DNA of 64,000 bases, from positions 43,030 to 107,029 of IMG/VR virus record IMGVR_UViG_3300033156_000775; one strand, given 5' to 3'. Both the position numbers and the translations under genes were made by a program. Below the pieces are notes generated by a model. It was not told where the DNA came from. It was given only the letters and a program-made list of their open reading frames with translations, and ran no database searches. This DNA is from a virus. Shown one piece after another: positions 14,165-59,190 of the stretch (the first letter of the stretch is position 1; each line of letters opens with the position of its first letter).

Positions 14165-14422
14165 ATGTCTGATGAAGGAAACGTTTGGACCACTCCAGAG
14201 CCTAAGGTGCCTCCTACCATACAGGTAGGGGACAAAGAATTCAAGGTTGAGCTAGAGAGTGACTTTGTGTCCACTATACTTGGGATCGTAAGATCCCTAG
14301 GTATAGGTAGGTTCCTAGTGAAGTACAATGGCTCAGTGATCACACCAGCTGAAGCACCAGACACATTCGAGGACTATGCTGGAAAAACAATCGTAATAGA
14401 GCCAGTTGATGAAGCTGGATAA
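14165..14422 (+). CDS. Ubiquitin-like (beta-grasp) protein
   Basis: 85 aa ending IVIEPVDEAG (C-terminal Gly); first gene of E2-E1-JAB operon. Confidence 0.7.
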   Translation: MSDEGNVWTTPEPKVPPTIQVGDKEFKVELESDFVSTILGIVRSLGIGRFLVKYNGSVITPAEAPDTFEDYAGKTIVIEPVDEAG

Positions 14423-14454
14423 GAGCTTCTACACACTGGCTCACTTTTTTTTTC

Positions 14455-15606
14455 ATGGAGGATGTTTATATGAGGCTTGTTTTCAAGAAGGATGGTGAAA
14501 GGCCTCCCAACTTCTATATTGAAATTTCCTATGAAGAGAAAGACCTGATTAACAATTATATCTATGAGAGTGGAGTTTACTATATCAGTGACAAGATCTA
14601 CCTGACCAATGCCACTGTGGCTAGAGCTCTAGGTCTCTCATCCAGATATTTGGACTATCATCCATTTATGAGTAGTTTTACTTCTAGGGAGCTCTTAAGT
14701 GCAGCCAAGATAGACATTGAAGATCCTGATGAAAGACAAAAGCTCATCTCTTCAGTGTACAAATACCTGAAAAACAGGCTTGAGATAGCCATGTCCAAGA
14801 CTGTTAGGGATGAACGTTCTATTCCCCTAGACATATCTCCATCCCTAGGAGAAATGAATGTAAGCCTAGAGGAAGTAGGAAAGATAGGGACACCTTTCCT
14901 CATCTCTATCGGGGACAAGGTGTTTGAGGCTAAGCTAGTAAAGGAGATTGACAGCTTCAGAGACTACATGCAGAGAAGGCTGAAGCAGATAGTGGGGGCA
15001 TATAGAAACCACATTACAGCTACTCTCAGTGCCCTACGTGACGAGTATGATAGGAAACTAGAGGAAATAGAAAAAACCAGGGAAACAATGATCCCAATGC
15101 CTAACATCACTCTTAGTGACTTAGCTACTGGCATGAGAATATGTAGGAACAACCAGTACCTAGAGGTTTATCTGCCAGTGAAGGTAGAGATCAAAAGAGT
15201 CTTTTACAACAAGAAATCTTTTACATTGAAAAAGGAGTACTGGTGTACTCTCAGAGGACTAGCTGGACTAGCACTGGATCGTGATCTTACAATAGTGTCA
15301 ACCAAGTTTGTGAGGTCTAAGAGGGCAAGTAGGGGAGTTAGGCATCCTAACGTGAATGATGATGGAATGGTGTGTCTTGGCTATACTAGACAGATCCTAG
15401 GTAGGAGGCTAAACGACATACATGATGCTTACACATGGATATATTCAGTGGTTGATTTGCTGTCCGTACCTAACTTCGATGATGCATACGATGTCCATGT
15501 TTCACAATGGGCTAGGGAGGTCTTTGATGCTCTGGAAAGTGGCCACTCAAGTGAGGTAGTAGAGGAAGTGGCTACTCTTCCTTCAGAAGTAGTGTGGAGG
15601 ACATAA
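14455..15606 (+). CDS. E2/UBC-like conjugating enzyme with N-terminal coiled coil
   Basis: HPNVNDDGMVCLG matches the E2 HPN...GxxCL catalytic motif. Confidence 0.75.
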   Translation: MEDVYMRLVFKKDGERPPNFYIEISYEEKDLINNYIYESGVYYISDKIYLTNATVARALGLSSRYLDYHPFMSSFTSRELLSAAKIDIEDPDERQKLISSVYKYLKNRLEIAMSKTVRDERSIPLDISPSLGEMNVSLEEVGKIGTPFLISIGDKVFEAKLVKEIDSFRDYMQRRLKQIVGAYRNHITATLSALRDEYDRKLEEIEKTRETMIPMPNITLSDLATGMRICRNNQYLEVYLPVKVEIKRVFYNKKSFTLKKEYWCTLRGLAGLALDRDLTIVSTKFVRSKRASRGVRHPNVNDDGMVCLGYTRQILGRRLNDIHDAYTWIYSVVDLLSVPNFDDAYDVHVSQWAREVFDALESGHSSEVVEEVATLPSEVVWRT

Positions 15607-15609
15607 CTA

Positions 15610-16248
15610 TTGTACGCTAGGCAGTCTAGTTTAAATCTCCATATTCCAAGTGACATTGGGATCATCGGGTGTGGAGGCATAGGCTCATGGGTAGCCATCT
15701 ACTCTGCTATGGGAGGAGTAAGGACAATCAGCTTGTTTGACCCTGACATCCTAGAGATCCATAACCTGAATAGACTTCCATATCCTGAGAGTGCTGTGGG
15801 CATGAAGAAAGTAGATGTCCTTAGAGAATACCTAGTCCACATTAGGCCTCAGAGTGAGGTATTTGCCTACGATAGACGTATTTCAAGGGACAATGCAACC
15901 CTACTTCACAAGTGTAAAATAGTCTTTGACTGTACAGATAGCACCAGAGCCCATAGGTTGATAGAGGGCTTATGGGTCAAGAAGAGCTTTACTGATCTGA
16001 TTAGAGCCTCATATGATGGTGACCATTACACCTTGTCCAAGAACCTTCGTTTAGAGAGCATGTCTTGGGGAAATGAAACCTCTGGGTACCAGATTGTCCC
16101 CAGCTGGGTCATCCCAGCATCGTTCATAGCCCAGATTGCATGTTGGTTGGCATATGCTGAGGATGCCCCTGAAAGATACTTTCTTTCTAACAGTTTAAGG
16201 AATACTGTTAACCGTTTCATTTATGGAGGTAAGACCACAATTGACTAG
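15610..16248 (+). CDS. ThiF/E1-like adenylyltransferase
   Basis: GIIGCGGIGS, DPDILEIHNLNR, KVDVL, DCTDS. Confidence 0.92.
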   Translation: MYARQSSLNLHIPSDIGIIGCGGIGSWVAIYSAMGGVRTISLFDPDILEIHNLNRLPYPESAVGMKKVDVLREYLVHIRPQSEVFAYDRRISRDNATLLHKCKIVFDCTDSTRAHRLIEGLWVKKSFTDLIRASYDGDHYTLSKNLRLESMSWGNETSGYQIVPSWVIPASFIAQIACWLAYAEDAPERYFLSNSLRNTVNRFIYGGKTTID

Positions 16249-16350
16249 AAGGAGGAGAAAAAAGAAGAGGAAAGCTACAGAGGAAACAGGTGGCATACTA
16301 GTAGTAGTGGATGATAGGGATAGGAGCAGTGAATTGTCATACCATATCCG

Positions 16351-16878
16351 TTGATTGCCAGGATCTCCAGCCTAGTTTCTAGACTTCATACTGAGTGGCT
16401 AGGTTACTTGGACTATGAACAGGTTGAGGACAATGGTAGACTTGTGTACAGAGCTACAGAGATTACTATCCCAGATCAGGAGGTCACATACTCATCGGTA
16501 AACGTTAACGATCCTGCTATAGGGATAGGTAAAGGAGTCATCCACTGTCATCCCTGGAAGGGATATTCATCTCATTCTAACACTGATGAGGACTACGTTG
16601 ATAGGAATCATCCCTTCAGCATAGTTGTAAACAAGGACTTGGACTTCTCTGTAAAAGCTGTAGTAGACGTCCCATGTGGGTCTAGGATACTAGTAGATGG
16701 GGAAGTAGAAATTGAATATCCAGATGTGGATACCAAGTCCTTCCTAGAGGAGGCTAAGAGCAAAATCAAGGAGAAGAAGTATGTCTACAGATACTCTGCA
16801 TCTAGGAAAAAGTCATCAGGGATAACTGCTATGGAGTATGGGTACCTAGATCCATACTCATATTCCTGGATGCCGTAG
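16351..16878 (+). CDS. JAB/MPN metallopeptidase (start uncertain)
   Basis: EWLGYL...HCHP-x6-HSNTD JAMM motif. Confidence 0.85.
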   Translation: MIARISSLVSRLHTEWLGYLDYEQVEDNGRLVYRATEITIPDQEVTYSSVNVNDPAIGIGKGVIHCHPWKGYSSHSNTDEDYVDRNHPFSIVVNKDLDFSVKAVVDVPCGSRILVDGEVEIEYPDVDTKSFLEEAKSKIKEKKYVYRYSASRKKSSGITAMEYGYLDPYSYSWMP

Positions 16879-21921: not shown

Positions 21922-21969
21922 GAAAGGGCTATCTTGAGTCCTTCACTGGTAAACGAATAATGAAACGTG

Positions 21970-22028
21970 ATGTGACAATGATGGAGCTTACAAACACGGA
22001 GTCTGTTGAGCTCCATTAGCTCTCACAT
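21970..22028 (+). ncRNA. Y-RNA-like unit 1 (minimal)
   Basis: ATGTGA/TCACAT outer stem, TGATGGAGCTT/GAGCTCCATTA inner stem, conserved TACA. Confidence 0.7.
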
Positions 22029-22038
22029 AAGTTGATTG

Positions 22039-22170
22039 GTGTGACTTGGACAGGAGCTTACAGGTCTAAAGCGTCACCCTGCTAAGGTGAAGATCTAGGT
22101 TCAAGTCCTAGCATGTCCACCATACTGGGCATGTGGCTGAAGTGGTTTAGAGCTCCTGTCACCTTCACAC
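22039..22170 (+). ncRNA. Y-RNA-like unit 2 with circularly permuted tRNA (anticodon GCT, internal ACCA)
   Basis: GACAGGAGCT/AGCTCCTGTC; anticodon arm TCACC-CTGCTAA-GGTGA; T arm CTAGG-TTCAAGT-CCTAG; acceptor CATGTCC-ACCA-tact-GGGCATG; D elements GCTGAAGTGG. Confidence 0.85.
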
Positions 22171-22180
22171 AGATTAAGTG

Positions 22181-22272
22181 ATGTGCCTAGCTAGGAGCTT
22201 ACAAACTGTGGCTATGGATACACGGTTAAGCTGGTAGGTCCAGCTGGTTAGAAGCTCCTAGCACTTGCACAT
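22181..22272 (+). ncRNA. Y-RNA-like unit 3
   Basis: ATGTGC/GCACAT; GCTAGGAGCTT/AAGCTCCTAGC; internal hairpins. Confidence 0.72.
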
Positions 22273-22279
22273 ATCTAAG

Positions 22280-22363
22280 ATGTCCCATAGACAGGAGCTT
22301 ACAAACTGCCCCAACCAAACTAAAGCTGGCAACTCTAGAAGAAAGCTCCTGTCACCTGGACAT
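22280..22363 (+). ncRNA. Y-RNA-like unit 4
   Basis: ATGTCC/GGACAT; GACAGGAGCTT/AAGCTCCTGTC. Confidence 0.72.
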
Positions 22364-22392
22364 ATCCTGTAAACACACTGGAGGATGATGAA

Positions 22393-22590
22393 ATGTCTAT
22401 ACTTAGGGTGGTAGTTGGACAGGACATTCAGGAGCTAGAAGTATCTGAGAACATGGCTAGACTGTCAGATGAGGAGATACTTAGCTTTGTAAGGGAAGCT
22501 ACAAATAGACCTGTAGATCCAGAGGACTTTGTAGTGGATAGGACAGAAAACAACAACATAGTGGTTAGGCCTAGAGCTGTCTATGGATAG
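22393..22590 (+). CDS. Ubiquitin-like small protein ending RPRAVYG
   Basis: GGAGG SD; beta-beta-alpha-beta-beta pattern; C-terminal Gly. Confidence 0.65.
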   Translation: MSILRVVVGQDIQELEVSENMARLSDEEILSFVREATNRPVDPEDFVVDRTENNNIVVRPRAVYG

Positions 22591-22733
22591 TGACAATATT
22601 GGATGAGATATTATCCATTCCAGATCCTAGTGGCCCTAGAAATTTCATTAAGAGGAATCTCAGGGTAGGAAAGGCTATAGATCAATACGGACATATCTAT
22701 CCTACTTATATATCTAAAGCTATCTATGGATAA
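22590..22733 (+). CDS. 47-aa micro-ORF ending KAIYG (same tail as upstream Ubl)
   Basis: GTG overlapping upstream stop; MTILDEILSIP...YISKAIYG. Confidence 0.5.
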   Translation: MTILDEILSIPDPSGPRNFIKRNLRVGKAIDQYGHIYPTYISKAIYG

Positions 22734-22743
22734 GGGCTGAACA

Positions 22744-22896
22744 TTGACTGATAATTCTAAACACATATTAACACCGAAGAAACTATTAGAGAAGTTTCTT
22801 AAAGTGTCTCTTCCTGCCTATATAATTGGGCTAGAGATATTCCCTGAATCTGGAGCTATATGGATAATCAAAGAAGATAATATGGATGTCCATTGA
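22744..22896 (+). CDS. 50-aa micro-ORF
   Basis: TTG start; fills the gap before RNA unit 5. Confidence 0.35.
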   Translation: MTDNSKHILTPKKLLEKFLKVSLPAYIIGLEIFPESGAIWIIKEDNMDVH

Positions 22897-22898
22897 AG

Positions 22899-23027
22899 GT
22901 GTGCTTTATGGATAGGAGCTTACAGCACACAGGGCTACCAGATCCTGTAGTATGGGTTCAAGTCCCGTCATAAGCAGCAGCTTGGCTATGTAGTGCAACT
23001 GGACAAGAGCTCCTATCACCTGCACAC
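22899..23027 (+). ncRNA. Y-RNA-like unit 5 with permuted tRNA-like domain (8-nt anticodon loop)
   Basis: GATAGGAGCTT/GAGCTCCTATC; D stem GTGC/GCAC; CAGGG-CTACCAGA-TCCTG; ATGGG-TTCAAGT-CCCGT; D loop AACTGG. Confidence 0.82.
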
Positions 23028-23068
23028 AATAGCTTAGCGGGTCCTCACTTTCCTGTCTAAGTTACCTG

Positions 23069-23199
23069 GTGTACCATGATGAGAGCTTACAAACCCAGTG
23101 TCGGTGGGAGAGATGTGGGTTCAAGTCCCACTATCCCTACATGGGATATGGTCTAACTGGCTGAGGACGCTTAATGTATAGCTCTCATCTCCTGTACAC
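23069..23199 (+). ncRNA. Y-RNA-like unit 6, YrlA-type topology (T arm, loop-closed acceptor stem, D arm)
   Basis: GATGAGAGCT/AGCTCTCATC; GTGGG-TTCAAGT-CCCAC; TATCCC-tacat-GGGATA; GTCT-AACTGGCTGA-GGAC. Confidence 0.82.
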
Positions 23200-23416
23200 T
23201 TTAATCCTCGTAGCGAAGTTAGAACGGATATGAGTTGATCTAATTTGCCAATCGATGTAAATCCATCTGAGCGTTGTATCTTTACTGAATTACCAGTTAA
23301 ATGTAGAATTAGAGCTGAGTTTAATCCAAAACCTGAGCTCTTAGTCAAGTTCTGTAGTATTTGTCCTGTTTTGATGGTGATAAAAAATAATATGAAATGA
23401 AAAGGAGAAATAGGTT

Positions 23417-24871
23417 ATGTCAGTAGATGAAAGAATACCCATATATCAAGAGCTCTTCCAGTCTATACTAGATTGTCCACATGGAAACCTAGAGGAGACA
23501 TTCAGAGTCCATAAGGAAGTCCTAGAGAAGAACCCACTGTTCTATATGAAGATGGCTGCTTGGTACATGAAGAATGGGATGGTTAGAGACCACAAAGTTG
23601 CTTTTGTAAAGACATTGATGGAGGCTGATGATCCTACTTTGAGGGATGAGGGATGGGCTCTTATTCAGAGGCTGCCCATACACTTGTTAGCTCAGGTAGT
23701 CCGGTCTACAAAGAAGACTAAGGCACTACGGTCAGCCGTGAAGCACAAGCTAGCTGAAATGCCATATAACAGGCTAGTGTCTGAGATCCTTAGATCATCT
23801 AAAGACCTTAAGAGCATGGTTGTTGCTCTACACATACCTACAACCAAGTCTTCAAACTTGAACTTTGAGACTATAGGAACTGAATTGTTCACTAAGAATC
23901 GTCCAATAAGGAGAGTCTTTGCTCAGCTAAGGAATGAGGAAGACCCAGATAAAGTAGCTGTCTTGCTTGAGAAGCTACCTATCCCATCCTACATTGCCAT
24001 GACCTCTATCAAGGTACGTACACCTGAAATAGTGAGAGTGCTAGTCAAACGTATGACTCCTAATGAGCTTATACAGTCTCTTAACATGCTGGGTAGGTTG
24101 AGAGCTATCAAGCCTAACATGGACATTATTAGGGGGAAGCTAGATAAGCTTGTATCTGACCCTAGAGTGAACGCTATGAGAGTCCTCAACATCCTACAGC
24201 ATCTAGAGCCAGCTCTAGTTCCCTATGAAGTGTTTGAGGTACTTGAGAGAGCTGTGTCCAGAAAAGCAAAGAGCATAAGCAAGATAGATGCTAGGGTCTC
24301 CCTCCACATTGACACTTCAGGTAGCATGGAGCCTGCTATTGAGATAGGGAAGATGCTGGCTACATCACTATCCATTGCATGTAAAGAGCCTCCTACGGTA
24401 TACAGTGTGTCTAGCACTCCATTCAAGGTTCAGCCTAGTAGCTACACTCCCTCAGGATGGAAGGAATCTTTCAGTCTACTGAGAGCTAATGGTGCTACCC
24501 CTCTTGGAGCAGGAATATCCCTAATGAAGCAGCATGGAGACACATGTGATGTCATCATACTGGTCACCGACACAGGGGAGAACTCATTCCCCAAGTTTGC
24601 TGATGAGTACCAGACATTAGGCAACAAGCCTAGAGTGATAATCCTCAATGTCAGCAGACACCCTGATAGAGGGTTCTTAGGGTCCCTCAGAAGAGCTAAT
24701 GTATCCTTTGAAATGCTACAGGTTAGAAGAGTAGATCAATACTCAGTGGACCAAGTGGTTACCCTTATAGGAGAAAGTAGCCCCTTCAAGACCATAATGG
24801 AGATAATGAACACTGATGTCCCATTGAGACCTACATGGACTAAGAAGCCCCAGTACTGGCTGAAGAAATAG
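23417..24871 (+). CDS. TROVE/Ro60-like helical protein with C-terminal vWA domain
   Basis: Long all-helical N-terminal region (NPLFYMKMAAWY...RDHK; MTPNELIQSLNMLGR); MIDAS DTSGSM, GATPL, ILVTD. Confidence 0.75.
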   Translation: MSVDERIPIYQELFQSILDCPHGNLEETFRVHKEVLEKNPLFYMKMAAWYMKNGMVRDHKVAFVKTLMEADDPTLRDEGWALIQRLPIHLLAQVVRSTKKTKALRSAVKHKLAEMPYNRLVSEILRSSKDLKSMVVALHIPTTKSSNLNFETIGTELFTKNRPIRRVFAQLRNEEDPDKVAVLLEKLPIPSYIAMTSIKVRTPEIVRVLVKRMTPNELIQSLNMLGRLRAIKPNMDIIRGKLDKLVSDPRVNAMRVLNILQHLEPALVPYEVFEVLERAVSRKAKSISKIDARVSLHIDTSGSMEPAIEIGKMLATSLSIACKEPPTVYSVSSTPFKVQPSSYTPSGWKESFSLLRANGATPLGAGISLMKQHGDTCDVIILVTDTGENSFPKFADEYQTLGNKPRVIILNVSRHPDRGFLGSLRRANVSFEMLQVRRVDQYSVDQVVTLIGESSPFKTIMEIMNTDVPLRPTWTKKPQYWLKK

Positions 24872-24914
24872 ACAAGTGTAGCCCGGACTACATTTTGAGG
24901 GAGGATACTTAGCG

Positions 24915-25286
24915 ATGGCTAATGATGAGCCTTTGACATTAGATCAAGTTATCTCTCTAGTCAGAGTCACAATGAAATCTATAGATCCAGTTAGGCTCTT
25001 CTATGAGCTAAAGAAGAAGAGAGTCAAGTTCTTAAGAGAAAGGTCAGTGGAAATAGCAAGAGCTGCAATATCCCTCCATATTCTTGGACTTCCAATAAAC
25101 ACCACTTTCCTCTCGTGCATACTAGATATTGATCCGCAAATAATACGTACAGTTATGCATACTCTAGGAGACAAGCATGTCTTTACCCTTAAGCGTGAAG
25201 GGTTTGGGAGTAAGGGATATGGATATGAGTGGACACCTAATCCAGCTATTCTAGGAGACTTTATAAATTGTCTAGAGGAAGAGTAG
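24915..25286 (+). CDS. Winged-helix-like protein
   Basis: HTH plus wing pattern (INTTFLSCIL...MHTLGDKHV...YEW). Confidence 0.45.
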   Translation: MANDEPLTLDQVISLVRVTMKSIDPVRLFYELKKKRVKFLRERSVEIARAAISLHILGLPINTTFLSCILDIDPQIIRTVMHTLGDKHVFTLKREGFGSKGYGYEWTPNPAILGDFINCLEEE

Positions 25287-26083
25287 GCACATTTGTGTCA
25301 GCTGTTCTACCTAAAACTAGAAAGGTAACTAGAGTGACTGATCTTGGAGTCAGAGAGTACTTGGTTACTAGGAAGGTCCCTCCTAACATCTATGTCTTCA
25401 GGTCTAGAGGGATATATGCTGAGCCACTAGCCATAGCTGCTGACATGGCTGATCGAATGGAATACTTTGAGAGCTTATGTCTACCAAGAGTCTATGTGTT
25501 CCCTGTAGTCCGGACTACACATTGGCTAGCTGTCCCACTAGCAAGGGAGCACTATAAGAAACATGTAAAGTATTCAGCCCCTTTACCTCTAATCTTTACT
25601 CCTAATAATCTAAGTCCGTTAGACCCTGTAATGGCTAGGGTCTATAAGGGCAAACGCACATACTTGATGTTTGAGGATTACCACTACAAATATGATCCAG
25701 AATTGGTTGAGAGAGCTAGGGACTATTTAATCTCACTGAGAGCTTCCTCTTATAGGAAAGACACTATGATTGATGCTCTTAAGCTGCCAGCTGAGCTTAG
25801 GGAGGCAGTTAAGATAATTGCTGACAGCATTACTCCTCCCCTAGAAAGAATGGTTAAGCATTCCCTTAGCCTTGTAAATGCTGAGTTTGTTTCTTTACAG
25901 GATATGGGAGCTGGAAGGTATAGAGTCACTTATCTTTACAAGGGAATTAAGGATTATATTGACATAGATGACTCCCTGTTCTGTCTAAATATCGGGATAT
26001 GTGTGGATGGACATGATAGGGATTTTGACTTAGCTAGTGGAATCCTAGTTAAGCATGAAAGAGATGATTACGTTTATGACTAG
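25268..26083 (+). CDS. Uncharacterised protein with C-terminal GICVDGHDRDFDL Cys motif (possible E2-like partner)
   Basis: ORF in TROVE operon; E2-like role is inference only. Confidence 0.45.
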   Translation: MSRGRVGTFVSAVLPKTRKVTRVTDLGVREYLVTRKVPPNIYVFRSRGIYAEPLAIAADMADRMEYFESLCLPRVYVFPVVRTTHWLAVPLAREHYKKHVKYSAPLPLIFTPNNLSPLDPVMARVYKGKRTYLMFEDYHYKYDPELVERARDYLISLRASSYRKDTMIDALKLPAELREAVKIIADSITPPLERMVKHSLSLVNAEFVSLQDMGAGRYRVTYLYKGIKDYIDIDDSLFCLNIGICVDGHDRDFDLASGILVKHERDDYVYD

Positions 26084-26289
26084 AATGAAAGAGTGGACTT
26101 GGGAGCTAGACCTGCAACATGAGAAAGCTGAAACAAAGCAGGAAGCTCTTAAGAACGTTAAAGCATTTTTCAAGTACCTATCAAATCTTCCAGTAGACCA
26201 GCTTGAAGAGTACATTACTATTTGGTCAGATGATGTTAGAGAGGAATAGATAATTGTTATCCCTTAAAAAAAAAAAGAGGTGAGTAAAT

Positions 26290-26532
26290 GTGTCGTTAGA
26301 TCTTAAACCTATAGATAGCCCTCCTTCCCTACGTAGAAATAAGTATAAAAATCTCTTAGAGAAATTCCTAGAAGACTCGGATGTTAAATATGCAGAAGTG
26401 GTTTTTCAGGACATTAGTCCACTTTCTGTAGTTCAAAGTCTCAACAAAGCCATTAAGTCTTCAGAGAGATACAGTAAAATCCAAGCGAGGAGAGCTGGAG
26501 GCAAGGTTTACTTAATAAAGGAGGATAGTTGA
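26290..26532 (+). CDS. Small putative DNA-binding protein
   Basis: GAGGTGA SD; RRNKY...GKVYL. Confidence 0.5.
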   Translation: MSLDLKPIDSPPSLRRNKYKNLLEKFLEDSDVKYAEVVFQDISPLSVVQSLNKAIKSSERYSKIQARRAGGKVYLIKEDS

Positions 26533-26583
26533 AAAAAAAATGGACATAGGACAAGTTGAAAATAAAAGGAGGAATGATAAGGT

Positions 26584-26865
26584 ATGGAGAAATTAGCAAA
26601 GTATACTCTGATAGCTACAGCAATAATATTTCCGTTGATGACTCTAGTTGCTTTCTACATTGACACAAGCTACTACTACGACTATATCTTCATATCCAAT
26701 AACTATCCTGAGCTACTGGACTATCACACTCGTATACTGAAATACGCTATCAATGCCATTGAACATACAAGCATTCTGTCTAGGATTTCCATCTACTTAG
26801 CCTTCCTAATCTTTGCTGGTATCCTAAGTCTACTCGCATGGTTATTTCTAAAGGATATGTTCTAA
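26584..26865 (+). CDS. Membrane protein (2 TM)
   Basis: Hydrophobic termini, GGAGG SD. Confidence 0.6.
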   Translation: MEKLAKYTLIATAIIFPLMTLVAFYIDTSYYYDYIFISNNYPELLDYHTRILKYAINAIEHTSILSRISIYLAFLIFAGILSLLAWLFLKDMF

Positions 26866-26882
26866 AATAGGGGAATTAGACT

Positions 26883-27875
26883 ATGAGTATAGACCCTGAA
26901 TTGTTGAAGCAAATAGTATCTGAAGCTGTCAAAGCAGCTCAGTCCGAAGCTAAGAAAGAACCAGAGTTAGACCAGTGGGCACTAGCTGAAGCTCCATTAG
27001 AAGAGGAGATAGACCTAAGCAAGCCTGAATATGAAGAGATGATCCTACAGCCCAGTGACATATCAGAGAAGAAGGAGCTATCAGGCTTCAAGACACATAC
27101 ATTTCTAGATCTGTTATTCATGGATGAAAAGAACAATTGTCTTAATGGAGTGCCTCATGGGGTCCAGCTTGGGATTGTAGGTACAAGTGGCTCAGGGAAA
27201 TCTATCTTAATAGAAGAGATTGCTGTCCGGGTAGCTAGTGAAGGTAAGAAAGTACTCTTGGCTTCTAGTGAAGATGTTTTTATCTCTGACACTCCTAGAT
27301 TCGATCTACAATCTAGATTAATGCAGAAAGCAAAGATACTAGACCTAGACTGGGATACTATAAAGGAGAACTTATATGTCCTAGATGCTATTAGCAATCC
27401 TAGACTTAGAGAGTGGGACTTCTTTGCTGAGATATATAGATATGCATATGAGACTAGAGAGTTTGAATTAGCCCTTATAGACTCTATAACTATGCTAGAG
27501 TCCTACAGGGGAGCTCTTAAGTATCGTTTGATGGAGCTTTCCAGATACAACCAAGTTAGAGGAATAACAGCTATCTATGTGAACCAAAGGGCTTCAGAGG
27601 ATTTTGACAAGCTATCCATTGCTGGAGGAATAGGATTAGCTCATGGTCTAGATGCTAACATAATCATTGATGTAGGCCGGACATACTTCAGTGACCAGAC
27701 AGCCTATCTAGGGAAGAGAGGCACTATAGTGAATATGTGTAGGGTTACTGATTGTAGGCTATGCTCCTTTATTCGAGAGCATATTCCCTTAACAATAACC
27801 AATCAAGGACTCTTAAAGTTGACAGATACAGGTGTAGAGATGATAAAGCAGTTCTACTCTCAAAAAGCAGAATAA
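26883..27875 (+). CDS. KaiC-like RecA-superfamily ATPase
   Basis: GVP...GTSGSGKS, LALIDSIT, AGGIGLAHGLD. Confidence 0.85.
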   Translation: MSIDPELLKQIVSEAVKAAQSEAKKEPELDQWALAEAPLEEEIDLSKPEYEEMILQPSDISEKKELSGFKTHTFLDLLFMDEKNNCLNGVPHGVQLGIVGTSGSGKSILIEEIAVRVASEGKKVLLASSEDVFISDTPRFDLQSRLMQKAKILDLDWDTIKENLYVLDAISNPRLREWDFFAEIYRYAYETREFELALIDSITMLESYRGALKYRLMELSRYNQVRGITAIYVNQRASEDFDKLSIAGGIGLAHGLDANIIIDVGRTYFSDQTAYLGKRGTIVNMCRVTDCRLCSFIREHIPLTITNQGLLKLTDTGVEMIKQFYSQKAE

Positions 27876-28131
27876 GGAAGATGAAGACAGTGAAATATGG
27901 TGATGGAAAGGGCAGAGTATTTATGTTGATGCCTGTTGGAAGGCTACGCTTTGTTCTGCCCTGGTATCTAGCTAACGACAGCACCTTCCATATTTCTGTT
28001 CCATTGGACTATAAAGACCTAGAATTCCTATCTAGAGAGCTAGGCTTGCCAATTGAGTCCTCTGTCAATGGTAGGAAACTTCTAGCTATTAAAGAGGGAG
28101 ACTTAGAAATCATTTTCATAGGTAGATAGAA

Positions 28132-28461
28132 ATGAGAAGGTCTAAAGCTAAGAAAGAAATGTCTGAGCTAATTGACTCCTTAGAAGAGGAGATAATTAAG
28201 CATAAGAAGCTAACCTGGATTAGAGTGCCATTGAAAGACAAGAAGGATACTCCTAGATTCAGACGCCTAACATTTAACGATGAGAATGGAGAGTTCAGTC
28301 CAGACAGGGTTAAGAGCTTCGTAGAGTTCCTTAGAGATATCACTAGTCAGGTAATAGATCAGGCCTACAAAGATAAGGTTGACATCAAAGATAGATCATC
28401 CTTGATTTATTTGCTAGGTCTAATTGTGGATCAGACATTTGAGGATTTAAGTTCAGATTAA
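28132..28461 (+). CDS. Hypothetical protein
   Basis: ORF. Confidence 0.5.
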   Translation: MRRSKAKKEMSELIDSLEEEIIKHKKLTWIRVPLKDKKDTPRFRRLTFNDENGEFSPDRVKSFVEFLRDITSQVIDQAYKDKVDIKDRSSLIYLLGLIVDQTFEDLSSD

Positions 28462-28476
28462 ACAGGAGGAATAACT

Positions 28477-28743
28477 ATGCTATGGATCTCAGTCCTTACT
28501 GGAATCCTAATTGGAATAGTAGTTGGATCTGTCTATTCCTTTTCTAGGAAATTATTCTTGGTAGGTGTCATAGGGGCTTCTGGTGTATTTGCCTTATTAC
28601 TCTCTGTAGCTCCCTACCCATTCCTTCTAACTCTACAGGAAGAGATAGTTTCCTGGAATAGCCTGTTGAAGTTAACAGGCTTCCTATTTGGACTGTATCC
28701 TGGTAATGATTTAGGACGGATCTTAAGAGAAGAGGTGAAATAG
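28477..28743 (+). CDS. Membrane protein (3 TM)
   Basis: GGAGG SD; hydrophobic. Confidence 0.6.
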   Translation: MLWISVLTGILIGIVVGSVYSFSRKLFLVGVIGASGVFALLLSVAPYPFLLTLQEEIVSWNSLLKLTGFLFGLYPGNDLGRILREEVK

Positions 28744-28746
28744 GAA

Positions 28747-28998
28747 ATGGAAATAATATACCATGACAGATGGAGTCAGGAAGCAACTAGCTATGGATTA
28801 GTAATAATAGAGGATGAGTCCTTCCTAGATGAGTATGGAGGACGATTCCTAGTAGTAGCTCTAGTCGGAAGCTATGGTACAACATACTTCTACAATAAGG
28901 GATACAAGCATCCAAGCTATGTGAAGGAGAAGCATTCCAATCTAACGTGGAGAGATGCTGAGATCATTGCTGAAAGGCTAAACGAGGTAATAGGATAA
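28747..28998 (+). CDS. Hypothetical protein
   Basis: ORF, GAGGTGA SD. Confidence 0.5.
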   Translation: MEIIYHDRWSQEATSYGLVIIEDESFLDEYGGRFLVVALVGSYGTTYFYNKGYKHPSYVKEKHSNLTWRDAEIIAERLNEVIG

Positions 28999-29327
28999 AT
29001 GTCCATTAGATGTGATCTACTGGACAATGCGAACAGAGCCATAGAATACTTACAGGACAGAATAGACACTCTAGTCTCAGATAGGGATAATGATGTCCAG
29101 CTAGCATCAGATGATATATTTTCTATCGTTGACCAATGGATAGAGGACTTACGTAAAGTCCTAAGCATCCTTACAGGAGAGGAATAAGGTAATGTCTGGT
29201 AAAGGTCTTATCCTTGAATGTCCATGTAACAACTGTAAGTATTCCTATGATGGTTGTGAGTTTGGATGCTCTAAACTTCTAGAATGGTTCTTTAAGTATC
29301 AGAAGCTTACAGGAGATGGGTCAGTAA

Positions 29328-29657
29328 TTGTCAAGCTACAGGGATGACATACTAGAACGGTACATGGAATTCTGGAACAAATGTGGGACACATGGGCTAA
29401 GTAACAAGGACAAGTTGAAGGTACTGAAGAGGCTAGTGGATTTTGAATCTAAATGTAGCTACATCAGCTTCTCCTACAAAGACAAGTATAAAGAAAAGAC
29501 ATTGACTGAGCTGTTCCCTGAGCTAGTGCCAGCTAACTTATGTAAAGTCCACAGACACTCAGCTAGGCTTAATGGCCTCATGCTCTATACCTTCAAGATT
29601 TGTCTAGAGAATGAACTTGAATCTTTAACTCTGGAGAGGAAGAGTGATGTCTCTTAG
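29328..29657 (+). CDS. Hypothetical protein
   Basis: ORF. Confidence 0.45.
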   Translation: MSSYRDDILERYMEFWNKCGTHGLSNKDKLKVLKRLVDFESKCSYISFSYKDKYKEKTLTELFPELVPANLCKVHRHSARLNGLMLYTFKICLENELESLTLERKSDVS

Positions 29658-29842
29658 GCTATCCAAGTTTATCTGGGCACTATATATTGACAAACAATTC
29701 ATAGAGTACTTTGACACTCACCAGTCAGCTATAGACTTTGGTAAGAAATACTATCCTAATTTCAGCTTCATAGTTAAGCCAATAACAGTATTCACGTTTG
29801 TAGGGGACAAGAAGCTTGAATGAAGGAGGATTTTAATGTCCT

Positions 29843-30046
29843 ATGGTTCTGAATCATTTGGTCTGTTTGCTCTTAGGTCACAAATGGAAGAGTCTGTTTG
29901 AGGAATGGTCTATCAAGAATCTAGGAAATGGTCTAGTAGAAGAGACAGAAGTCTTTGTTTGTACTAGATGTGGTAAACGATGGACATTGAAAGGTATAAT
30001 TGATTGCAAGGACCAGTCAGCTTTCCTAATGGAATGGAGGAATTAA
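29843..30046 (+). CDS. DUF1660-like zinc-binding phage protein
   Basis: CLLLGHKW...CTRCG. Confidence 0.6.
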   Translation: MVLNHLVCLLLGHKWKSLFEEWSIKNLGNGLVEETEVFVCTRCGKRWTLKGIIDCKDQSAFLMEWRN

Positions 30047-30049
30047 ACT

Positions 30050-30565
30050 GTGTCCGTAATAAGAACTGTCAAGGAAGAGCCATGTTCTCAGTGTGGTAGA
30101 CTAACAAACGCATACGATATGCTGATGGGTAGGCTATGTCCAGAATGTATAGCTAAACGAGCTATTACTTTTGCTAGGAACATTAGGAATCTATATGGAA
30201 TCGATGAGCCTGAAGAGTTAGACCCTTATTATTACAAATTAGCTACTTTGCCCCTGATAGATCATAGCAATGACATTGATGCTCATTTACATTCCATAAC
30301 AAACTATAGAGATCCTAAGAGGATACCAATAATCCTTAAGCGTTTAGAGAATATCTGGAGAAGGTTTCCAGACCTTAGACTAGGACAGCTTATAGAAAAT
30401 GTCTTCCCTAACAGAGGGATAGCTGGACATAGTGAATCAGCATATTATCTGGAAGATGAAGAGTTTATTGAACGAATAGAGAAATTTTATAGCAATATAA
30501 AGTCTGAAAAAGAGATAGACCATACCAAGCTAATAAGAGATGAAGAGAATGTCCAAAATAGATAG
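30050..30565 (+). CDS. Zn-finger plus conserved phage domain
   Basis: CxxC...CxxC; RDPKRI...WRRFPDLRLGQLI. Confidence 0.6.
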   Translation: MSVIRTVKEEPCSQCGRLTNAYDMLMGRLCPECIAKRAITFARNIRNLYGIDEPEELDPYYYKLATLPLIDHSNDIDAHLHSITNYRDPKRIPIILKRLENIWRRFPDLRLGQLIENVFPNRGIAGHSESAYYLEDEEFIERIEKFYSNIKSEKEIDHTKLIRDEENVQNR

Positions 30566-31211
30566 GCAATTCCTACATGAGTTTCTTTACAGAGGAAAAG
30601 AGCTAGAATCCCTAGAAGATAAACAAGTTACGCTGTGTGGGTGTGGAGCTCTAGGGACTTGGACAGCTGTGTTCCTAGCTAGGAGTGGACTTAGACATTT
30701 CAGGCTGATAGATATGGATAAGGTTGAGATACACAACACTTCTACTCAAGCATTCTTCCTAGAGAACCTTAACCAATACAAGGCTACTGCTCTGTCCAGA
30801 ATCCTCTACAGAATCAACAGAGCTAGATCCTCAATCTACAATGAGGAGCTAACAGCTGACAATGTGTCCCTAGCTTTCGATGACACAGACTTGGTTATTT
30901 GTACATTTGACAACTATAAATCTAGAAAGCTGGTTAGGGACAAGGCCCTAGAGCTAGACTTTCCAACAGTGTTTGCAGGTATGAATGGAAGCCTAAACTA
31001 TGGGGAGGTAGCTTGGGCTGAGGATTACAATCCTCCTAGAGATCCTAAATCTAGAGATATAGACCCATGCAATTATCCATTAGCAACAACTTTAGTGGTG
31101 TTGACTTCAGCTGTACTAGCTGAGGTCTCTCTAAACTATCTCCTTAAAGGATTCAAGTTCTATAAGCCATTTGGCTTTTCATTTAGCTCTTTCCAGGTAA
31201 TTTCAAAATAA
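30549..31211 (+). CDS. Second ThiF/E1-like adenylyltransferase
   Basis: CGCGALG, IDMDKVEIHN, KA, TFDNY, DPCNYP (candidate catalytic Cys). Confidence 0.9.
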   Translation: MSKIDRQFLHEFLYRGKELESLEDKQVTLCGCGALGTWTAVFLARSGLRHFRLIDMDKVEIHNTSTQAFFLENLNQYKATALSRILYRINRARSSIYNEELTADNVSLAFDDTDLVICTFDNYKSRKLVRDKALELDFPTVFAGMNGSLNYGEVAWAEDYNPPRDPKSRDIDPCNYPLATTLVVLTSAVLAEVSLNYLLKGFKFYKPFGFSFSSFQVISK

Positions 31212-33921: not shown

Positions 33922-35565
33922 ATGAGCGTCGTAAAGATTCCTAGTTCAAAAGAACTGGTTAAGGATCTGGGACTAGAGAAGGCTATAAATCTACTATCAA
34001 AGACTAAACCACTAAGCGTCATAGCTAGAGATCTCAATATTCCATATTTCAGAGTAATGTTGTATTCAAAGGGAGTTAAGATAAACTCTACATTGAAGTT
34101 TAATGAAGTAGCTGATATCTACAACAGAATATCCCTTATGTCCTCCATTAAAGGTAAGACATCAGAGATGGAATCTTTATTGTCCCTACCTATTTCCTAT
34201 GAACAGAAGATTAGGCTGTTACTAGGTAGAATAGCTGATGTCCCTTTGGGAGTGGGAGATGACACTGTATTAGAATCGCTAAGGCTAGCCTACAATATCT
34301 CTAAGGTAGAGATGTCCAAGCTTAGAGAGAAGTATGGTGATGTAGGGGACATAACCTATAAGAAGGTGATGTTCCTAGCTTCGATCTTTAAGATAGCTAC
34401 TAATGATGAAGCAAAGTACATAGCTAGGCTATGTAGGAGATCCCTCAACCTCCATATCCCTTCACAGAGCATTGTAGCTTTAATCTCTAGGAAGCTGAGA
34501 GTTAGACCTGATCTGTTGAGAGAGGCTACTCTTACTAGAGGTTTGTTAGGAGGCCTTCTATTAGCTTCTAAAGGAAATAGAGCTTTATTGAAGGCTAAGC
34601 TCTCACCATCTAAGTTTCTAGAGCCTCAGCTAGCAATTATGTTTGATAGATCCAAGATAGTCTTCCCAGTTAGAGTAGAAGTAAAGTATGATGGTGTACG
34701 ATGTCAGGTCCATAAAATCAAGGATAGGGTATTCTTATTTTCTAGAGCTGGTAACCTTAAGAATAATAGCTATCCATCAATCGTAAATGATGCAGTCCGG
34801 ACTACATTAAGTGCTGAAAGCTGCATACTTGATTCTGAGATTGTAGGAGTAAAGAATGGTAATATAATTCCCTTCTATGAAGGTATCCAGTCCCAGGACA
34901 AGTGTGAACTAACTATACGTTTCTTTGATGTTCTTTATTACAATGGGATTAACCTGTTAGGTAGACCATTAAAGGATAGACTATCTATTCTCTACAAGAT
35001 TGTCCCTGAGGACTTAATAGCTTCTGGATTCACAGTTTCATCATATGAAGCTTTAATGTCTAAGTATGATGAGATAGTTTCTATGGGACATGAAGGGATA
35101 ATGGTTAAGTCCCTATCTGAGAGGTACCATCCTGGAAGGAGACATAGGAGCTGGATGAAGCTAAAGAAATCTAGAGACACACTGGATGTGGTGCTGGTTA
35201 AGGCTAACTATGGCTCTGGAGAGCTAGGAGGCTTGTATTCCAGCTTCAGGATGGCTGTTAAGCACCCATCTAAGATGTTACTATATGAGATAGGGAATCT
35301 AGGAGGAATAGAGAGGGATACATTACAGCTACTATCAGAAATGGCTGATCAATATTCTCTAGATAGAAGAGATAAGGAAGGTGTTTACCTGTTACCTAGA
35401 ATAGTTGTAGAAGTGTCTTTCTATGAGGTCATAAGATCCAGTAAATATCCTTCTGGATTTAGCTTGAGGTCTCCAAACTTGGTTAGGATTAGATATGATA
35501 AGACACCTAATCAGATAGACACAATAAGCAAGGTAAGAAAACTTTATTCTTTAAAGAATCTTTAA
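33922..35565 (+). CDS. lig: ATP-dependent DNA ligase
   Basis: KYDGVR, LDSEIV, FDVLY, EGIMVK, WMKLK, OB domain SLRSP..RIRYDK. Confidence 0.95.
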   Translation: MSVVKIPSSKELVKDLGLEKAINLLSKTKPLSVIARDLNIPYFRVMLYSKGVKINSTLKFNEVADIYNRISLMSSIKGKTSEMESLLSLPISYEQKIRLLLGRIADVPLGVGDDTVLESLRLAYNISKVEMSKLREKYGDVGDITYKKVMFLASIFKIATNDEAKYIARLCRRSLNLHIPSQSIVALISRKLRVRPDLLREATLTRGLLGGLLLASKGNRALLKAKLSPSKFLEPQLAIMFDRSKIVFPVRVEVKYDGVRCQVHKIKDRVFLFSRAGNLKNNSYPSIVNDAVRTTLSAESCILDSEIVGVKNGNIIPFYEGIQSQDKCELTIRFFDVLYYNGINLLGRPLKDRLSILYKIVPEDLIASGFTVSSYEALMSKYDEIVSMGHEGIMVKSLSERYHPGRRHRSWMKLKKSRDTLDVVLVKANYGSGELGGLYSSFRMAVKHPSKMLLYEIGNLGGIERDTLQLLSEMADQYSLDRRDKEGVYLLPRIVVEVSFYEVIRSSKYPSGFSLRSPNLVRIRYDKTPNQIDTISKVRKLYSLKNL

Positions 35566-58995: not shown

Positions 58996-59190
58996 TTGAT
59001 GGTGGACTATATAATTAAACAATTAGATATTGACATTTGGGAAATAATCTCTCCTAAGGGAGAACTTTATCATGTCTGGATAGACGCTAACGGAATCTTT
59101 AAATGCACATGTCCACATCACGTCTATCACAAAGGAAAAGTAGAATGCAAACACATTAAGATGGTGAAAAAACGCTATTTGAGGGAATGA
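58996..59190 (+). CDS. SWIM zinc-finger protein
   Basis: CTCP...CKHI. Confidence 0.8.
   Translation: MMVDYIIKQLDIDIWEIISPKGELYHVWIDANGIFKCTCPHHVYHKGKVECKHIKMVKKRYLRE

What the first reader, a model, noticed from the sequence alone, without database searches (positions are those of the whole stretch)
22393..31211. Possible second, dispersed conjugation pathway: Ubl(AVYG) + TROVE/vWA + GIC-motif protein + second E1
Seen: a second ThiF (30549..31211, with DPCNYP) lies outside the first Ub operon. ORF 25268..26083 in the TROVE operon ends with a GICVDGHDRDFDL Cys motif reminiscent of the E2 GxICL active site. Inference: these form an orthogonal E1/E2-like relay acting on the Ro-like protein, its RNAs or host targets. 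I recall similar gene sets in uncharacterised bacterial loci but cannot verify that here.
Basis: inference. Interest (0 to 1): 0.72.

Follow-up and report, generated by a model that had tools for sequence, protein, structure and literature searches.

The report
Ubiquitin-like module wired to Ro60-Y RNA
This virus carries a conserved gene set, also found in many bacteria and phages, that joins a Ro60-type RNA-binding protein and its small structured RNAs to a tiny ubiquitin-like protein, its activating enzyme and a new RNA-binding cysteine protein, a link between RNA surveillance and protein tagging that I found in no paper I could search.

Summary

- **Ubl (22393-22590):** belongs to a 71-member family. 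68 members stop exactly at the Gly of RP(E)AV(Y/F/W)G, 2 carry two extra residues, and 1 is fused to the Ro-like protein.
- **Ro-like (23417-24871):** a divergent Ro60 (TROVE + vWA/MIDAS). Its family profile hits human RO60 at E 9e-12.
- **271-aa protein (25268-26083):** not a recognisable UBC protein. It has two cold-shock/S1-type OB folds, a helical linker and a small C-terminal domain. The "GIC" cysteine in that domain is the only invariant residue among 103 homologues.
- **ThiF#2 (30540-31211):** an intact minimal E1 with an invariant Cys.

The four genes lie in the same order and on the same strand in 38 cellular loci and about 10 viral loci. In 251 cyanobacterial genomes the Cys protein and the Ro-like protein occur in exactly the same 25. 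Phage versions add a JAB peptidase. Six Y-RNA-like structured RNAs flank the Ubl gene here, and similar RNAs lie upstream of the Ro-like gene, between Ubl and Ro in most cellular loci.

Whether the Cys domain has an E2 fold could not be tested. This scan has found the same module before on other DNA (at least 33 genomes). I found no publication describing it.

The parts
21962..22036 (+). Y-RNA-like unit 0: outer stem, internal loop, inner stem ATGGAGCTT/GAGCTCCAT
   Evidence: RNA fold -26.5 kcal/mol, z -4.4. Repeat families.
22030..22176 (+). Y-RNA-like unit 1, with a tRNA-like inner module that ARAGORN and Rfam call tRNA-Ser(GCU) at 22048-22122
   Evidence: Fold z -3.0. tRNA calls. Inverted repeat I1 (35 nt arms).
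22176..22276 (+). Y-RNA-like unit 2 (inner stem GCTAGGAGCTT/AAGCTCCTAGC)
   Evidence: Fold z -4.6. Inverted repeat I5 is 100% complementary.
22279..22366 (+). Y-RNA-like unit 3 (inner stem GACAGGAGCTT/AAGCTCCTGTC)
   Evidence: Fold z -4.75. Inverted repeat I3.
22393..22590 (+). Ubiquitin-like protein, 65 aa, with a free C-terminal Gly (…VRPRAVYG)
   Evidence: Family HMM E 8e-28. 68 of 71 family members end exactly at the Gly. R59, P60 and G65 are invariant. 8 of the 10 best PDB profile hits are ubiquitin or FAT10, though weak (best E 0.016).
22900..23032 (+). Y-RNA-like unit 4, with a T-arm-like GGTTCAAGTCC module
   Evidence: Fold z -2.0. Inverted repeat I10 is 100% complementary.
23062..23205 (+). 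Y-RNA-like unit 5, with a T-arm-like module (inner stem GATGAGAGCT/AGCTCTCATC)
   Evidence: Fold z -4.1. Inverted repeat I14.
23417..24871 (+). Divergent Ro60-like protein: helical TROVE-like ring part plus a vWA domain with a MIDAS motif
   Evidence: The family profile hits human RO60 (9nen) at E 9e-12 over helical and vWA parts, and TROVE proteins 9l5y and 9kop at E 1e-8. D299, S301, S303, T361 and D385 are invariant. The Pfam TROVE model itself does not hit.
25268..26083 (+).
26084..30539 (+). About 4.4 kb of genes that are not part of the module (KaiC/RecA-like ATPase at 26883-27875, small ORFs, Zn-ribbon protein at 30050-30565) and that separate the Cys protein from its E1 in this genome
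   Evidence: Of the genes in this stretch, only the 59-aa ORF 29644-29823 has a homologue in any related locus, and only in the close relative L003. In 43 cellular loci the two genes are separated by between -87 and +389 nt.
30540..31211 (+). ThiF#2: the minimal E1-like adenylyltransferase of the Ro-linked clade
   Evidence: Pfam ThiF E 3e-27. Clade HMM E 2.5e-84, against 2e-15 for ThiF#1. GxGxxG, D58, D60, E63, N66, Q70, K81, D124, N125, R129 and C177 are invariant or nearly so.

Best explanation
The region holds one copy of a conserved module. It has four protein genes (Ubl, divergent Ro60-like TROVE-vWA protein, OB-OB-Cys protein, minimal ThiF-type E1) plus Y-RNA-like structured RNAs. Phages add a JAB peptidase.

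**Proposed mechanism**
1. ThiF#2 adenylates the free C-terminal Gly of the 65-aa Ubl. It probably then takes the Ubl onto its invariant crossover-loop Cys (C177).
2. The Ubl passes to the invariant Cys (C245) of the OB-OB-Cys protein.
3. The two cold-shock/S1-type OB folds of that protein hold it on RNA, most plausibly the Y-like RNAs or RNAs captured by the Ro-like ring.
4. The Ubl is then attached to a target at or near the Ro-Y RNA particle.
5. Where present, JAB trims precursor tails and Ubl-Ro fusions, and may remove conjugates.

**Basis of each step**
- Shown here: the genes are real, each carries the conserved residues expected of its role, and they are linked by gene order and by phyletic co-occurrence.
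- Inferred from established ThiF/E1 biochemistry: adenylation of the terminal Gly.
- Inferred only: thioester relay to C245, RNA-dependence, and the identity of the target.

In this virus the module is stretched out by a 4.4-kb insertion and lacks its own JAB. That fits its Ubl ending exactly at Gly.
For: **Gene order**
- Ubl, Ro-like, Cys protein and ThiF lie co-directionally and in that order in 38 of 79 cellular loci. That is 28 of the 45 loci with enough flank. About 10 of 37 viral loci have the same set.
- 12 of the 13 sequences with the closest Ro-like proteins (the window plus 11 of the 12 closest viral loci) carry the Cys protein and the ThiF.
- Few other window genes have any homologue in these loci, and none recurs with the module.
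- Cys protein and ThiF abut or overlap in 43 of 43 cellular pairs.

**Phyletic pattern**
- In 251 cyanobacterial genomes the Cys-protein family and strong Ro-like hits occur in the same 25 genomes. In at least 6 of them the two genes are on different contigs or far apart.

**Ubl**
- 68 of 71 members end at ...RPEAV(Y/F/W)G*. Two have 2 extra residues and one is an in-frame Ubl-Ro fusion. All three of those loci encode the JAB. The JAB-less loci (window, L003, L010) end exactly at Gly.
- The best PDB profile hits are ubiquitin or FAT10, with the tails aligned.

**E1**
- The adenylation motifs are intact and C177 is invariant.

**Cys protein**
- High-confidence model, RNA-type OB folds, and a single invariant Cys.

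**JAB**
- Pfam Prok-JAB above its cutoff, with an HTHPx7SxxD motif.

**RNAs**
- Six units share one architecture. Five have z-scores from -3.0 to -4.75 and one has z -2.0. Stem changes between units are compensatory.
- A structured GAGCTTAC...AGCTC motif occurs 12 times in related loci. All 12 are on the Ro strand and upstream of Ro, and most cellular hits lie between Ubl and Ro.
Against: - The Cys protein matches no UBC, Prok-E2, PADLOC or NCBIfam model. It lacks an HPN motif and gave nothing in hhalign against the window's own E2-like protein.
- The fold of its C-terminal domain was not searched on its own.
- Minimal E1s with a Ubl and a JAB can work without any E2 (SAMP/UbaA) or as sulfur carriers (ThiS/TtuB). 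The best NCBIfam match of ThiF#2 is a ThiS adenylyltransferase, below its cutoff.
- No conjugate, thioester or RNA binding has been observed.
- The Ubl fold itself is unmodelled, and its PDB hits are individually non-significant.
- The cyanobacterial co-occurrence counts related genomes, so they are not independent events.
Confidence: 0.55

Rival explanations
1. E2-independent tagging, as in archaeal SAMP/UbaA/HvJAMM1. ThiF#2 alone activates the Ubl and transfers it to targets. The OB-OB-Cys protein is not a thioester carrier but an RNA-binding adaptor, sensor or substrate whose Cys has another role.
For: - The E1 is minimal, and a Ubl and a JAB accompany it in phages.
- The Cys protein shows no sequence membership in any E2 family.
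- Earlier follow-ups in this scan chose the same closest analogue.
Against: - A single invariant Cys in an otherwise 19%-identical family points to catalysis or covalent chemistry.
- The Cys-protein gene abuts or overlaps the E1 gene in 43 of 43 cellular pairs, as E2-E1 pairs and fusions do.
- No conserved His accompanies the Cys, which argues against a protease role.
Confidence: 0.2
2. Sulfur-carrier pathway. The small protein is a ThiS/MoaD/TtuB-like carrier that ThiF#2 thiocarboxylates. The OB-OB-Cys protein relays sulfur to RNA, for example to T-loop-like modules of the Y-like RNAs.
For: - The best NCBIfam matches of ThiF#2 are ThiS and ThiF adenylyltransferases.
- From my knowledge of E. 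coli ThiF and MoeB, the invariant Cys sits about where ThiF C184 and MoeB C187 lie.
- The Cys protein has RNA-type OB folds.
- Units 1, 4 and 5 carry T-arm-like modules.
Against: - The tail is aromatic-Gly, not the Gly-Gly of known sulfur carriers.
- No rhodanese, cysteine desulfurase or PP-loop ATPase is conserved in the module.
- An in-frame Ubl-Ro fusion in L020 and precursor tails in L009 and L011 occur, though such tails also occur in some sulfur-carrier systems.
- The PDB profile hits are to ubiquitin and FAT10, not ThiS or MoaD.
Confidence: 0.12
3. No dedicated second pathway. ThiF#2 is a spare E1 serving the first Ub-like operon (14165-16878) or host Ubls, and its closeness to the Ro locus is ordinary viral synteny.
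For: - The window's module has no JAB of its own, while the first operon has a JAMM-like gene.
- A preprint on Nidhogg viruses interprets viral ThiF genes as hijackers of host ubiquitin systems.
Against: - ThiF#2-clade genes accompany the Ro-like gene in bacteria and phages where no relative of the window's first-operon Ubl or E2-like protein was found within about 10 kb.
- ThiF#1 scores about 70 orders of magnitude worse against the clade HMM.
- Co-occurrence of the Cys protein and the Ro-like protein is exact.
Confidence: 0.03

Closest known systems
Bacterial and phage Ro60 (Rsr) with Y RNAs (YrlA/YrlB; Deinococcus Rsr-Y RNA-PNPase; Salmonella rsr-yrlBA-rtcBA). Sources: PMC4201824, and Sim et al. 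2020 as cited.
   Same: - A TROVE-like helical ring plus a vWA/MIDAS protein.
- The gene lies next to structured RNAs built from a long terminal stem with an internal loop and tRNA-like inner modules.
   Different: - The protein is too divergent for the Pfam TROVE model.
- The RNAs are not found by Rfam Y_RNA or YrlA models, even at E 5.
- The partners are a Ubl, an E1 and an OB-Cys protein. None of the conserved module families is RtcB or another RNA ligase. PNPase, which is not operon-linked in the known systems, was not examined.
Bil system (BilA-D), which I equate from memory with operon type 6d of Iyer, Burroughs and Aravind 2006 (PMC1779556; one search shows only the type 6d description)
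   Same: A small Ubl, an E1-like ThiF, a JAB peptidase and a Cys-bearing partner encoded together, present in bacteria and on mobile elements.
   Different: - Bil has a recognisable E2-fold protein. Here the Cys protein has two OB folds and matches no E2 family.
- Bil has no Ro-like protein or ncRNA.
- That paper mentions neither vWA nor TROVE.
E2-independent prokaryotic Ubl systems: archaeal SAMP/UbaA/HvJAMM1 and Thermus TtuB/TtuC with a JAMM peptidase (PMC4443979, PMC2948915)
   Same: A minimal ThiF-type E1, a small beta-grasp-type protein with a free C-terminal Gly, and a JAMM peptidase.
   Different: - Those Ubls end in Gly-Gly and double as sulfur carriers. This one ends in aromatic-Gly.
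- Those systems have no obligatory Cys-protein partner, Ro-like protein or RNA.
CBASS type II Cap2/Cap3 and Bub pathways (PMC10097602, PMC11601596)
   Same: Prokaryotic E1-type adenylation of a C-terminus, with a dedicated peptidase. ThiF#2 hits PADLOC 'E1-E2' models through its E1 part.
   Different: - Cap2 is an E2-E1 fusion acting on the cGAS-like enzyme.
- Bub works through oxyester intermediates, and its peptidase-E1 fusion (BubCD) lacks a catalytic Cys.
- Here both the E1 and its partner keep invariant Cys residues, and the context is an RNP.
Nidhogg viruses of Helarchaeota (bioRxiv 10.1101/2021.07.29.454249)
   Same: Large tailed archaeal viruses reported to encode Ro60 (TROVE+vWA), an RNA ligase and several ThiF/E1-like proteins. 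This genome has the same inventory, plus a RadA-type recombinase, a Lig1-type ligase, PolB and NrdD.
   Different: - The paper treats Ro60 and the E1-like genes as separate features, with the E1s as hijackers of host ubiquitin.
- It describes no Ubl, Cys protein, Y-like RNA array or linkage.
- I did not test whether this genome is itself a Nidhogg virus.

Membership tests
Ro60 / TROVE-vWA | Sequence relationship to Ro60 across both the helical TROVE part and the vWA domain | tested here: met
   The profile of 28 family members hits human RO60 9nen at E 9e-12 (profile positions 97-412) and TROVE proteins 9l5y and 9kop at E 1e-8 (profile positions 27-309).
Ro60 / TROVE-vWA | Match to the Pfam TROVE model (PF05731) | tested here: not met
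   No Pfam family at E 0.1 for the window protein apart from a chance L36e match. None of the 120 listed homologues carries a precomputed TROVE (PF05731) hit; a few carry vWA-type families PF13519 or PF05762. This is a divergent clade, not a canonical member.
Ro60 / TROVE-vWA | MIDAS motif DxSxS...T...D in the vWA domain | tested here: met
   D299, S301, S303, T361 and D385 are invariant in 28 sequences.
Ro60 / TROVE-vWA | Cognate Y RNA encoded nearby | tested here: inconclusive
   Six adjacent RNAs have a Y-RNA-like stem/internal-loop/stem design and tRNA-like modules, and a conserved structured motif lies upstream of Ro in 11 other loci (12 hits). Rfam Y_RNA and YrlA models do not match, and binding is untested.
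ThiF / E1-like adenylyltransferase | Pfam ThiF domain above its cutoff, with nucleotide-binding and catalytic motifs | tested here: met
   95.6 bits against a cutoff of 28.1. GxGxxG, D58, D60, E63, N66, Q70, K81, D124, N125 and R129 are conserved in 55 sequences.
ThiF / E1-like adenylyltransferase | Catalytic Cys able to take the Ubl as a thioester | tested here: inconclusive
   C177 is invariant, about 53 residues after the DN motif. Its equivalence to ThiF C184 or an E1 catalytic Cys is inferred from position only.
Ubiquitin-like modifier (beta-grasp Ubl) | Free C-terminal Gly, or Gly exposed by processing | tested here: met
   68 of 71 members end at Gly, 2 have two extra residues, and 1 is fused to the Ro-like protein.
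Ubiquitin-like modifier (beta-grasp Ubl) | Beta-grasp fold | tested here: inconclusive
   8 of the 10 best PDB profile hits are ubiquitin or FAT10, but the best E is 0.016. The Atlas has no model.
Ubiquitin-like modifier (beta-grasp Ubl) | Genomic association with an E1 and a JAB | tested here: met
   JAB is present in 9 viral loci but not in the window.
E2 / UBC superfamily (including Prok-E2 families) | Sequence match to UQ_con or Prok-E2_A-E models | tested here: not met
   None of 103 family members matches any Pfam family at E 0.01. PADLOC and NCBIfam gave nothing. hhalign against the window's E2-like protein gave probability 0.2%.
E2 / UBC superfamily (including Prok-E2 families) | Conserved catalytic Cys in a loop after the beta-meander | tested here: met
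   C245 is invariant. In the model it lies in a loop after strands 206-241 and before helix 255-267.
E2 / UBC superfamily (including Prok-E2 families) | HPN motif upstream of the Cys | tested here: not met
   The conserved motif is S-A-G-I-C-L-x-G-x-D, with no conserved His, Pro or Asn upstream. As far as I recall, many prokaryotic E2-like proteins also lack HPN.
E2 / UBC superfamily (including Prok-E2 families) | UBC fold | tested here: inconclusive
   The OB domains dominated the whole-model searches, and the tool states that the C-terminal part was barely tested.
ThiS/MoaD-type sulfur carrier | C-terminal Gly-Gly | tested here: not met
   The penultimate residue is Y, F, W or L in all 71 members.
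JAB/JAMM peptidase (module component) | HxHx7Sx2D motif and a Prok-JAB match | tested here: met
   Met in 9 related viral loci. The window has none by family HMM. The window's only JAMM-like gene is 16351-16878 in the first operon, with motif HCHx8SNTD and no Pfam hit.

The most novel reading that the evidence does not exclude
The module is an RNA-directed tagging machine. The Y-like RNAs and the Ro-like ring capture or present a specific RNA or RNP. The OB-OB-Cys protein reads that RNA and transfers the Ubl onto whatever is bound there, either an RNA-associated protein or the RNA itself as a protein-RNA conjugate. That would make it the first prokaryotic or viral system in which a non-coding RNA specifies the substrate of ubiquitin-like conjugation.
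Probability: 0.12. Interest if true: 0.95.

Novelty: new variant of a known kind. Interest (0 to 1): 0.8.

Why it matters
Ro60-Y RNA particles are conserved from bacteria to humans and are a major autoantigen, yet what they do beyond RNA quality control is still debated. Prokaryotic ubiquitin-like pathways (CBASS Cap2, Bil, Bub) have only recently been shown to act in phage-host conflict.

This module hard-wires the two together. The link is seen in cyanobacteria and other bacteria, in phages including very large ones, and in what looks like an archaeal virus. The co-occurrence is exact, and one natural Ubl-Ro fusion exists.

If the proposed relay is real, three things follow:
- It defines a new family of Ubl pathways with a non-UBC, RNA-binding Cys carrier.
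- It gives Ro-like proteins a direct biochemical partner.
- It offers a compact four-gene operon (for example L045, L049, L054, L099) that can be reconstituted directly.

Its presence in viruses as well as hosts suggests a role in infection conflicts or in takeover of RNA metabolism.

Tried and rejected
- **Structure with a shallow alignment.** The first AF2 run on the 271-aa protein used a 6-sequence alignment and was useless (pLDDT 39). It succeeded only after the sensitive profile search gave 103 sequences.
- **Fold of the C-terminal Cys domain.** Foldseek against PDB and BFVD, and VIA-align wide, returned only OB/CSD/S1 matches for the N-terminal half. The C-terminal Cys domain stayed effectively unsearched. 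The Atlas gave nothing on residues 172-271.
- **Sequence family searches.** A PDB sequence search with the single protein and with the profile gave nothing meaningful. Pfam, PHROGs, PADLOC and NCBIfam gave nothing for the Ubl, the Ro-like protein or the Cys protein.
- **E2 profile tests.** hhalign against the window's own E2-like protein was negative. Harvesting Prok-E2_B sequences for a real E2 profile found only 2 in 251 genomes. No viral relatives of the window's E2-like protein were found. A proper profile-profile E2 test was therefore not possible.
- I obtained neighbourhoods through the search for related loci instead.
- **JAB in this genome.** The module-type JAB was sought in the window, L003, L004 and L010 and not found.
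- **The 47-aa ORF 22590-22733 ending AIYG.** Another note flagged it as a second modifier. It does not match the Ubl family HMM even at E 10. It has no counterpart in L003, where the Ubl directly abuts Ro. Only a 19-nt repeat of the Ubl 3' end supports it. I do not count it as part of the module.
- **Literature.** No paper combines TROVE with ThiF, JAB or Ubl genes. Iyer et al. 2006, the 2021 jumbo-phage survey and the 2020 vWA conflict-systems paper do not link them. I could not read Burroughs and Aravind 2016 (NAR) on RNA-repair systems. Prior mention there cannot be excluded.

Full report
**What the window is**

The window is bases 43030-107029 of a complete 107-kb virus record with terminal repeats. 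Nearly all genes are on the + strand.
- It encodes a split large terminase, an RNA ligase, a calcineurin-like phosphoesterase and a Lig1-type ATP-dependent DNA ligase.
- It also encodes PolB, anaerobic NrdD and a RadA/Rad51-type recombinase with an N-terminal HhH domain.
- This inventory resembles the Nidhogg viruses of Helarchaeota, which are reported to carry Ro60, an RNA ligase and several ThiF/E1-like genes. I did not test that identity directly.

**The observation**

All four ORFs exist as described.
- ThiF#2 is a solid Pfam ThiF match at E 3e-27.
- The genome has exactly two ThiF genes.
- The first sits in a separate Ubl/E2-like/E1/JAMM-like operon at 14165-16878.

**The TROVE/vWA protein**

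Pfam does not recognise it. A profile of 28 homologues hits human RO60 at E 9e-12 across helical and vWA parts, and two TROVE-domain structures at E 1e-8. The MIDAS residues are invariant. It is a divergent Ro60-like protein.

**The RNAs**

The DNA around the Ubl gene holds six units with one design. Each has an outer 6-7 bp stem, an asymmetric internal loop, a 10-11 bp inner stem (GACAGGAGCUU/AAGCUCCUGUC, with compensatory changes between units) and a variable inner module.
- Three of the inner modules are tRNA-like, and one is called tRNA-Ser(GCU).
- Five units fold with z-scores from -3.0 to -4.75; unit 4 has z -2.0.
- Rfam Y_RNA and YrlA models do not match.

A relative with 60% identity in the Ro-like protein (L003) has the same genes packed into about 6 kb. 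Its 66-aa protein ends in the same VRPRAVYG.

Among 37 viral loci with a Ro-like gene:
- Of the 12 loci with the closest Ro-like proteins, 11 also carry a ThiF#2-clade gene and a homologue of the 271-aa protein, downstream and co-directional.
- 10 of them carry the small protein.
- 9 carry a JAB peptidase, with motif HTHPx7SxxD and a Prok-JAB score above the Pfam cutoff.
- Few other window genes have any homologue in these loci, and none recurs with the module, so this is not general synteny.
- ThiF#1 matches the clade far more weakly, at 2e-15 against 2.5e-84.
- A more distant viral Ro clade (L012-L039) has none of the partners.

In cellular genomes there are at least 499 relatives of the Ro-like protein. 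Most are cyanobacteria, with Acidobacteriota, Chthonomonadaceae, Proteobacteria and Chloroflexia also represented.
- Of the 79 loci fetched, 38 have Ubl, Ro-like, Cys protein and ThiF. All 38 share one order and one strand.
- The Cys-protein and ThiF genes are separated by between -87 and +389 nt in all 43 pairs.

In a sample of 251 cyanobacterial genomes, the Cys-protein family and strong Ro-like hits occur in exactly the same 25.

**The Ubl**

Of 71 family members, 68 stop at the Gly of RPEAV(Y/F/W)G. Two have two extra residues. One (L020) is fused in frame to the Ro-like protein.
- Those three loci all have the JAB.
- The JAB-less loci, including this window, end exactly at Gly.
- The family profile's best PDB hits are ubiquitin and FAT10 with the tails aligned, but they are weak (best E 0.016).
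- It belongs only to unnamed clusters.

**The 'GIC' protein**

With a 103-sequence alignment the model is confident (pLDDT 92.7).
- Helices follow, then a four-strand meander, a loop with C245, and a final helix.
- C245 is the only invariant residue. G243 and D250 are nearly invariant. No His is conserved.
- No member matches any Pfam family.
- The protein is therefore not a demonstrable UBC member. It is a strongly constrained Cys protein that always sits next to the E1.

**The E1**

The ThiF#2 clade keeps all adenylation motifs and an invariant Cys (C177). From my knowledge of ThiF and MoeB, the crossover-loop Cys lies at about that position.

**Reading**

The simplest account is a Ubl activation and transfer pathway coupled to a Ro-like/Y-like RNA particle. 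The OB-Cys protein would be an RNA-tethered, E2-like carrier. E2-independent tagging and sulfur-carrier chemistry remain possible. The aromatic-Gly tail, and the absence of any sulfur-donor or PP-loop gene, count against the sulfur-carrier reading.

**Prior knowledge**

I found no paper linking TROVE/Ro60 to ThiF, JAB or Ubl genes. One relevant survey could not be read.

This scan has noted the same module in at least 33 other genomes, with concordant follow-ups. One of those is flagged 'part of it fell' without saying which part.

This window adds four things:
- a probable archaeal-virus version
- a JAB-less, stretched layout
- the exact 25 of 25 co-occurrence
- the conserved RNA motif upstream of the Ro-like gene, mostly between Ubl and Ro

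Noticed in passing
window 5507-6061 and 6408-7811: The large terminase is split. The ATPase part and the RNaseH-like nuclease part lie in separate ORFs about 350 nt apart. This could be an intron, an inserted element or a true two-gene terminase.
   Followed up: no
window 60850-63381: An 843-aa DNA methylase matches N6_N4_Mtase in three stretches and carries a LAGLIDADG domain in the middle. This looks like an intein or a homing-endonuclease insertion.
   Followed up: no
window 59187-60173, 33922-35565, 53968-56508, 40945-42744: A RadA/Rad51-type recombinase with an HhH N-terminus, a Lig1-type ATP-dependent ligase, PolB and anaerobic NrdD. Together they suggest an archaeal tailed virus from an anoxic habitat, similar to the published Nidhogg viruses.
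   Followed up: partly
window 22571-22589 vs 22714-22732; TATGGATA at about 22213, 22582, 22725, 22859, 22907: A 19-nt direct repeat of the Ubl gene's 3' end (89% identity), and five copies of TATGGATA within 700 nt. The repeat creates the 47-aa ORF ending AIYG, which does not match the Ubl family HMM. It may be a remnant of a duplication or an RNA or promoter element.
   Followed up: partly
L020 9689-11740: A natural in-frame fusion of the Ubl to the N-terminus of the Ro-like protein (…VLRPDSVLG-KEDEY…). One open frame matches both HMMs. This locus also has the JAB.
   Followed up: partly
L040 8154-8894, L056 8251-8979 and 7 other cyanobacterial loci: An accessory family of about 243 aa lies between the Ubl and Ro-like genes in 9 of 22 cellular loci, with no Pfam match. 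A second family of about 74 aa lies just upstream of the Ubl in 6 loci.
   Followed up: no
window 51594-53521: An ARPP-1 domain protein is followed directly by a ParB_N/HTH protein. Other notes on this genome report a genome-wide 16-18 bp palindrome that might be its binding site.
   Followed up: no
window 14165-16878: A separate Ub-like operon. It has an 85-aa ORF, a 383-aa protein with a weak UQ_con match (E 0.004), ThiF#1, and a JAMM-like protein with motif HCHx8SNTD and no Pfam hit. No viral relatives of the E2-like protein were found.
   Followed up: partly
window 30050-30565: A 171-aa protein with an N-terminal CxxC...CxxC zinc ribbon overlaps the start of ThiF#2 by 26 nt, in the position that JAB occupies in several phage loci. 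It is not a JAB and is not conserved in L003.
   Followed up: partly
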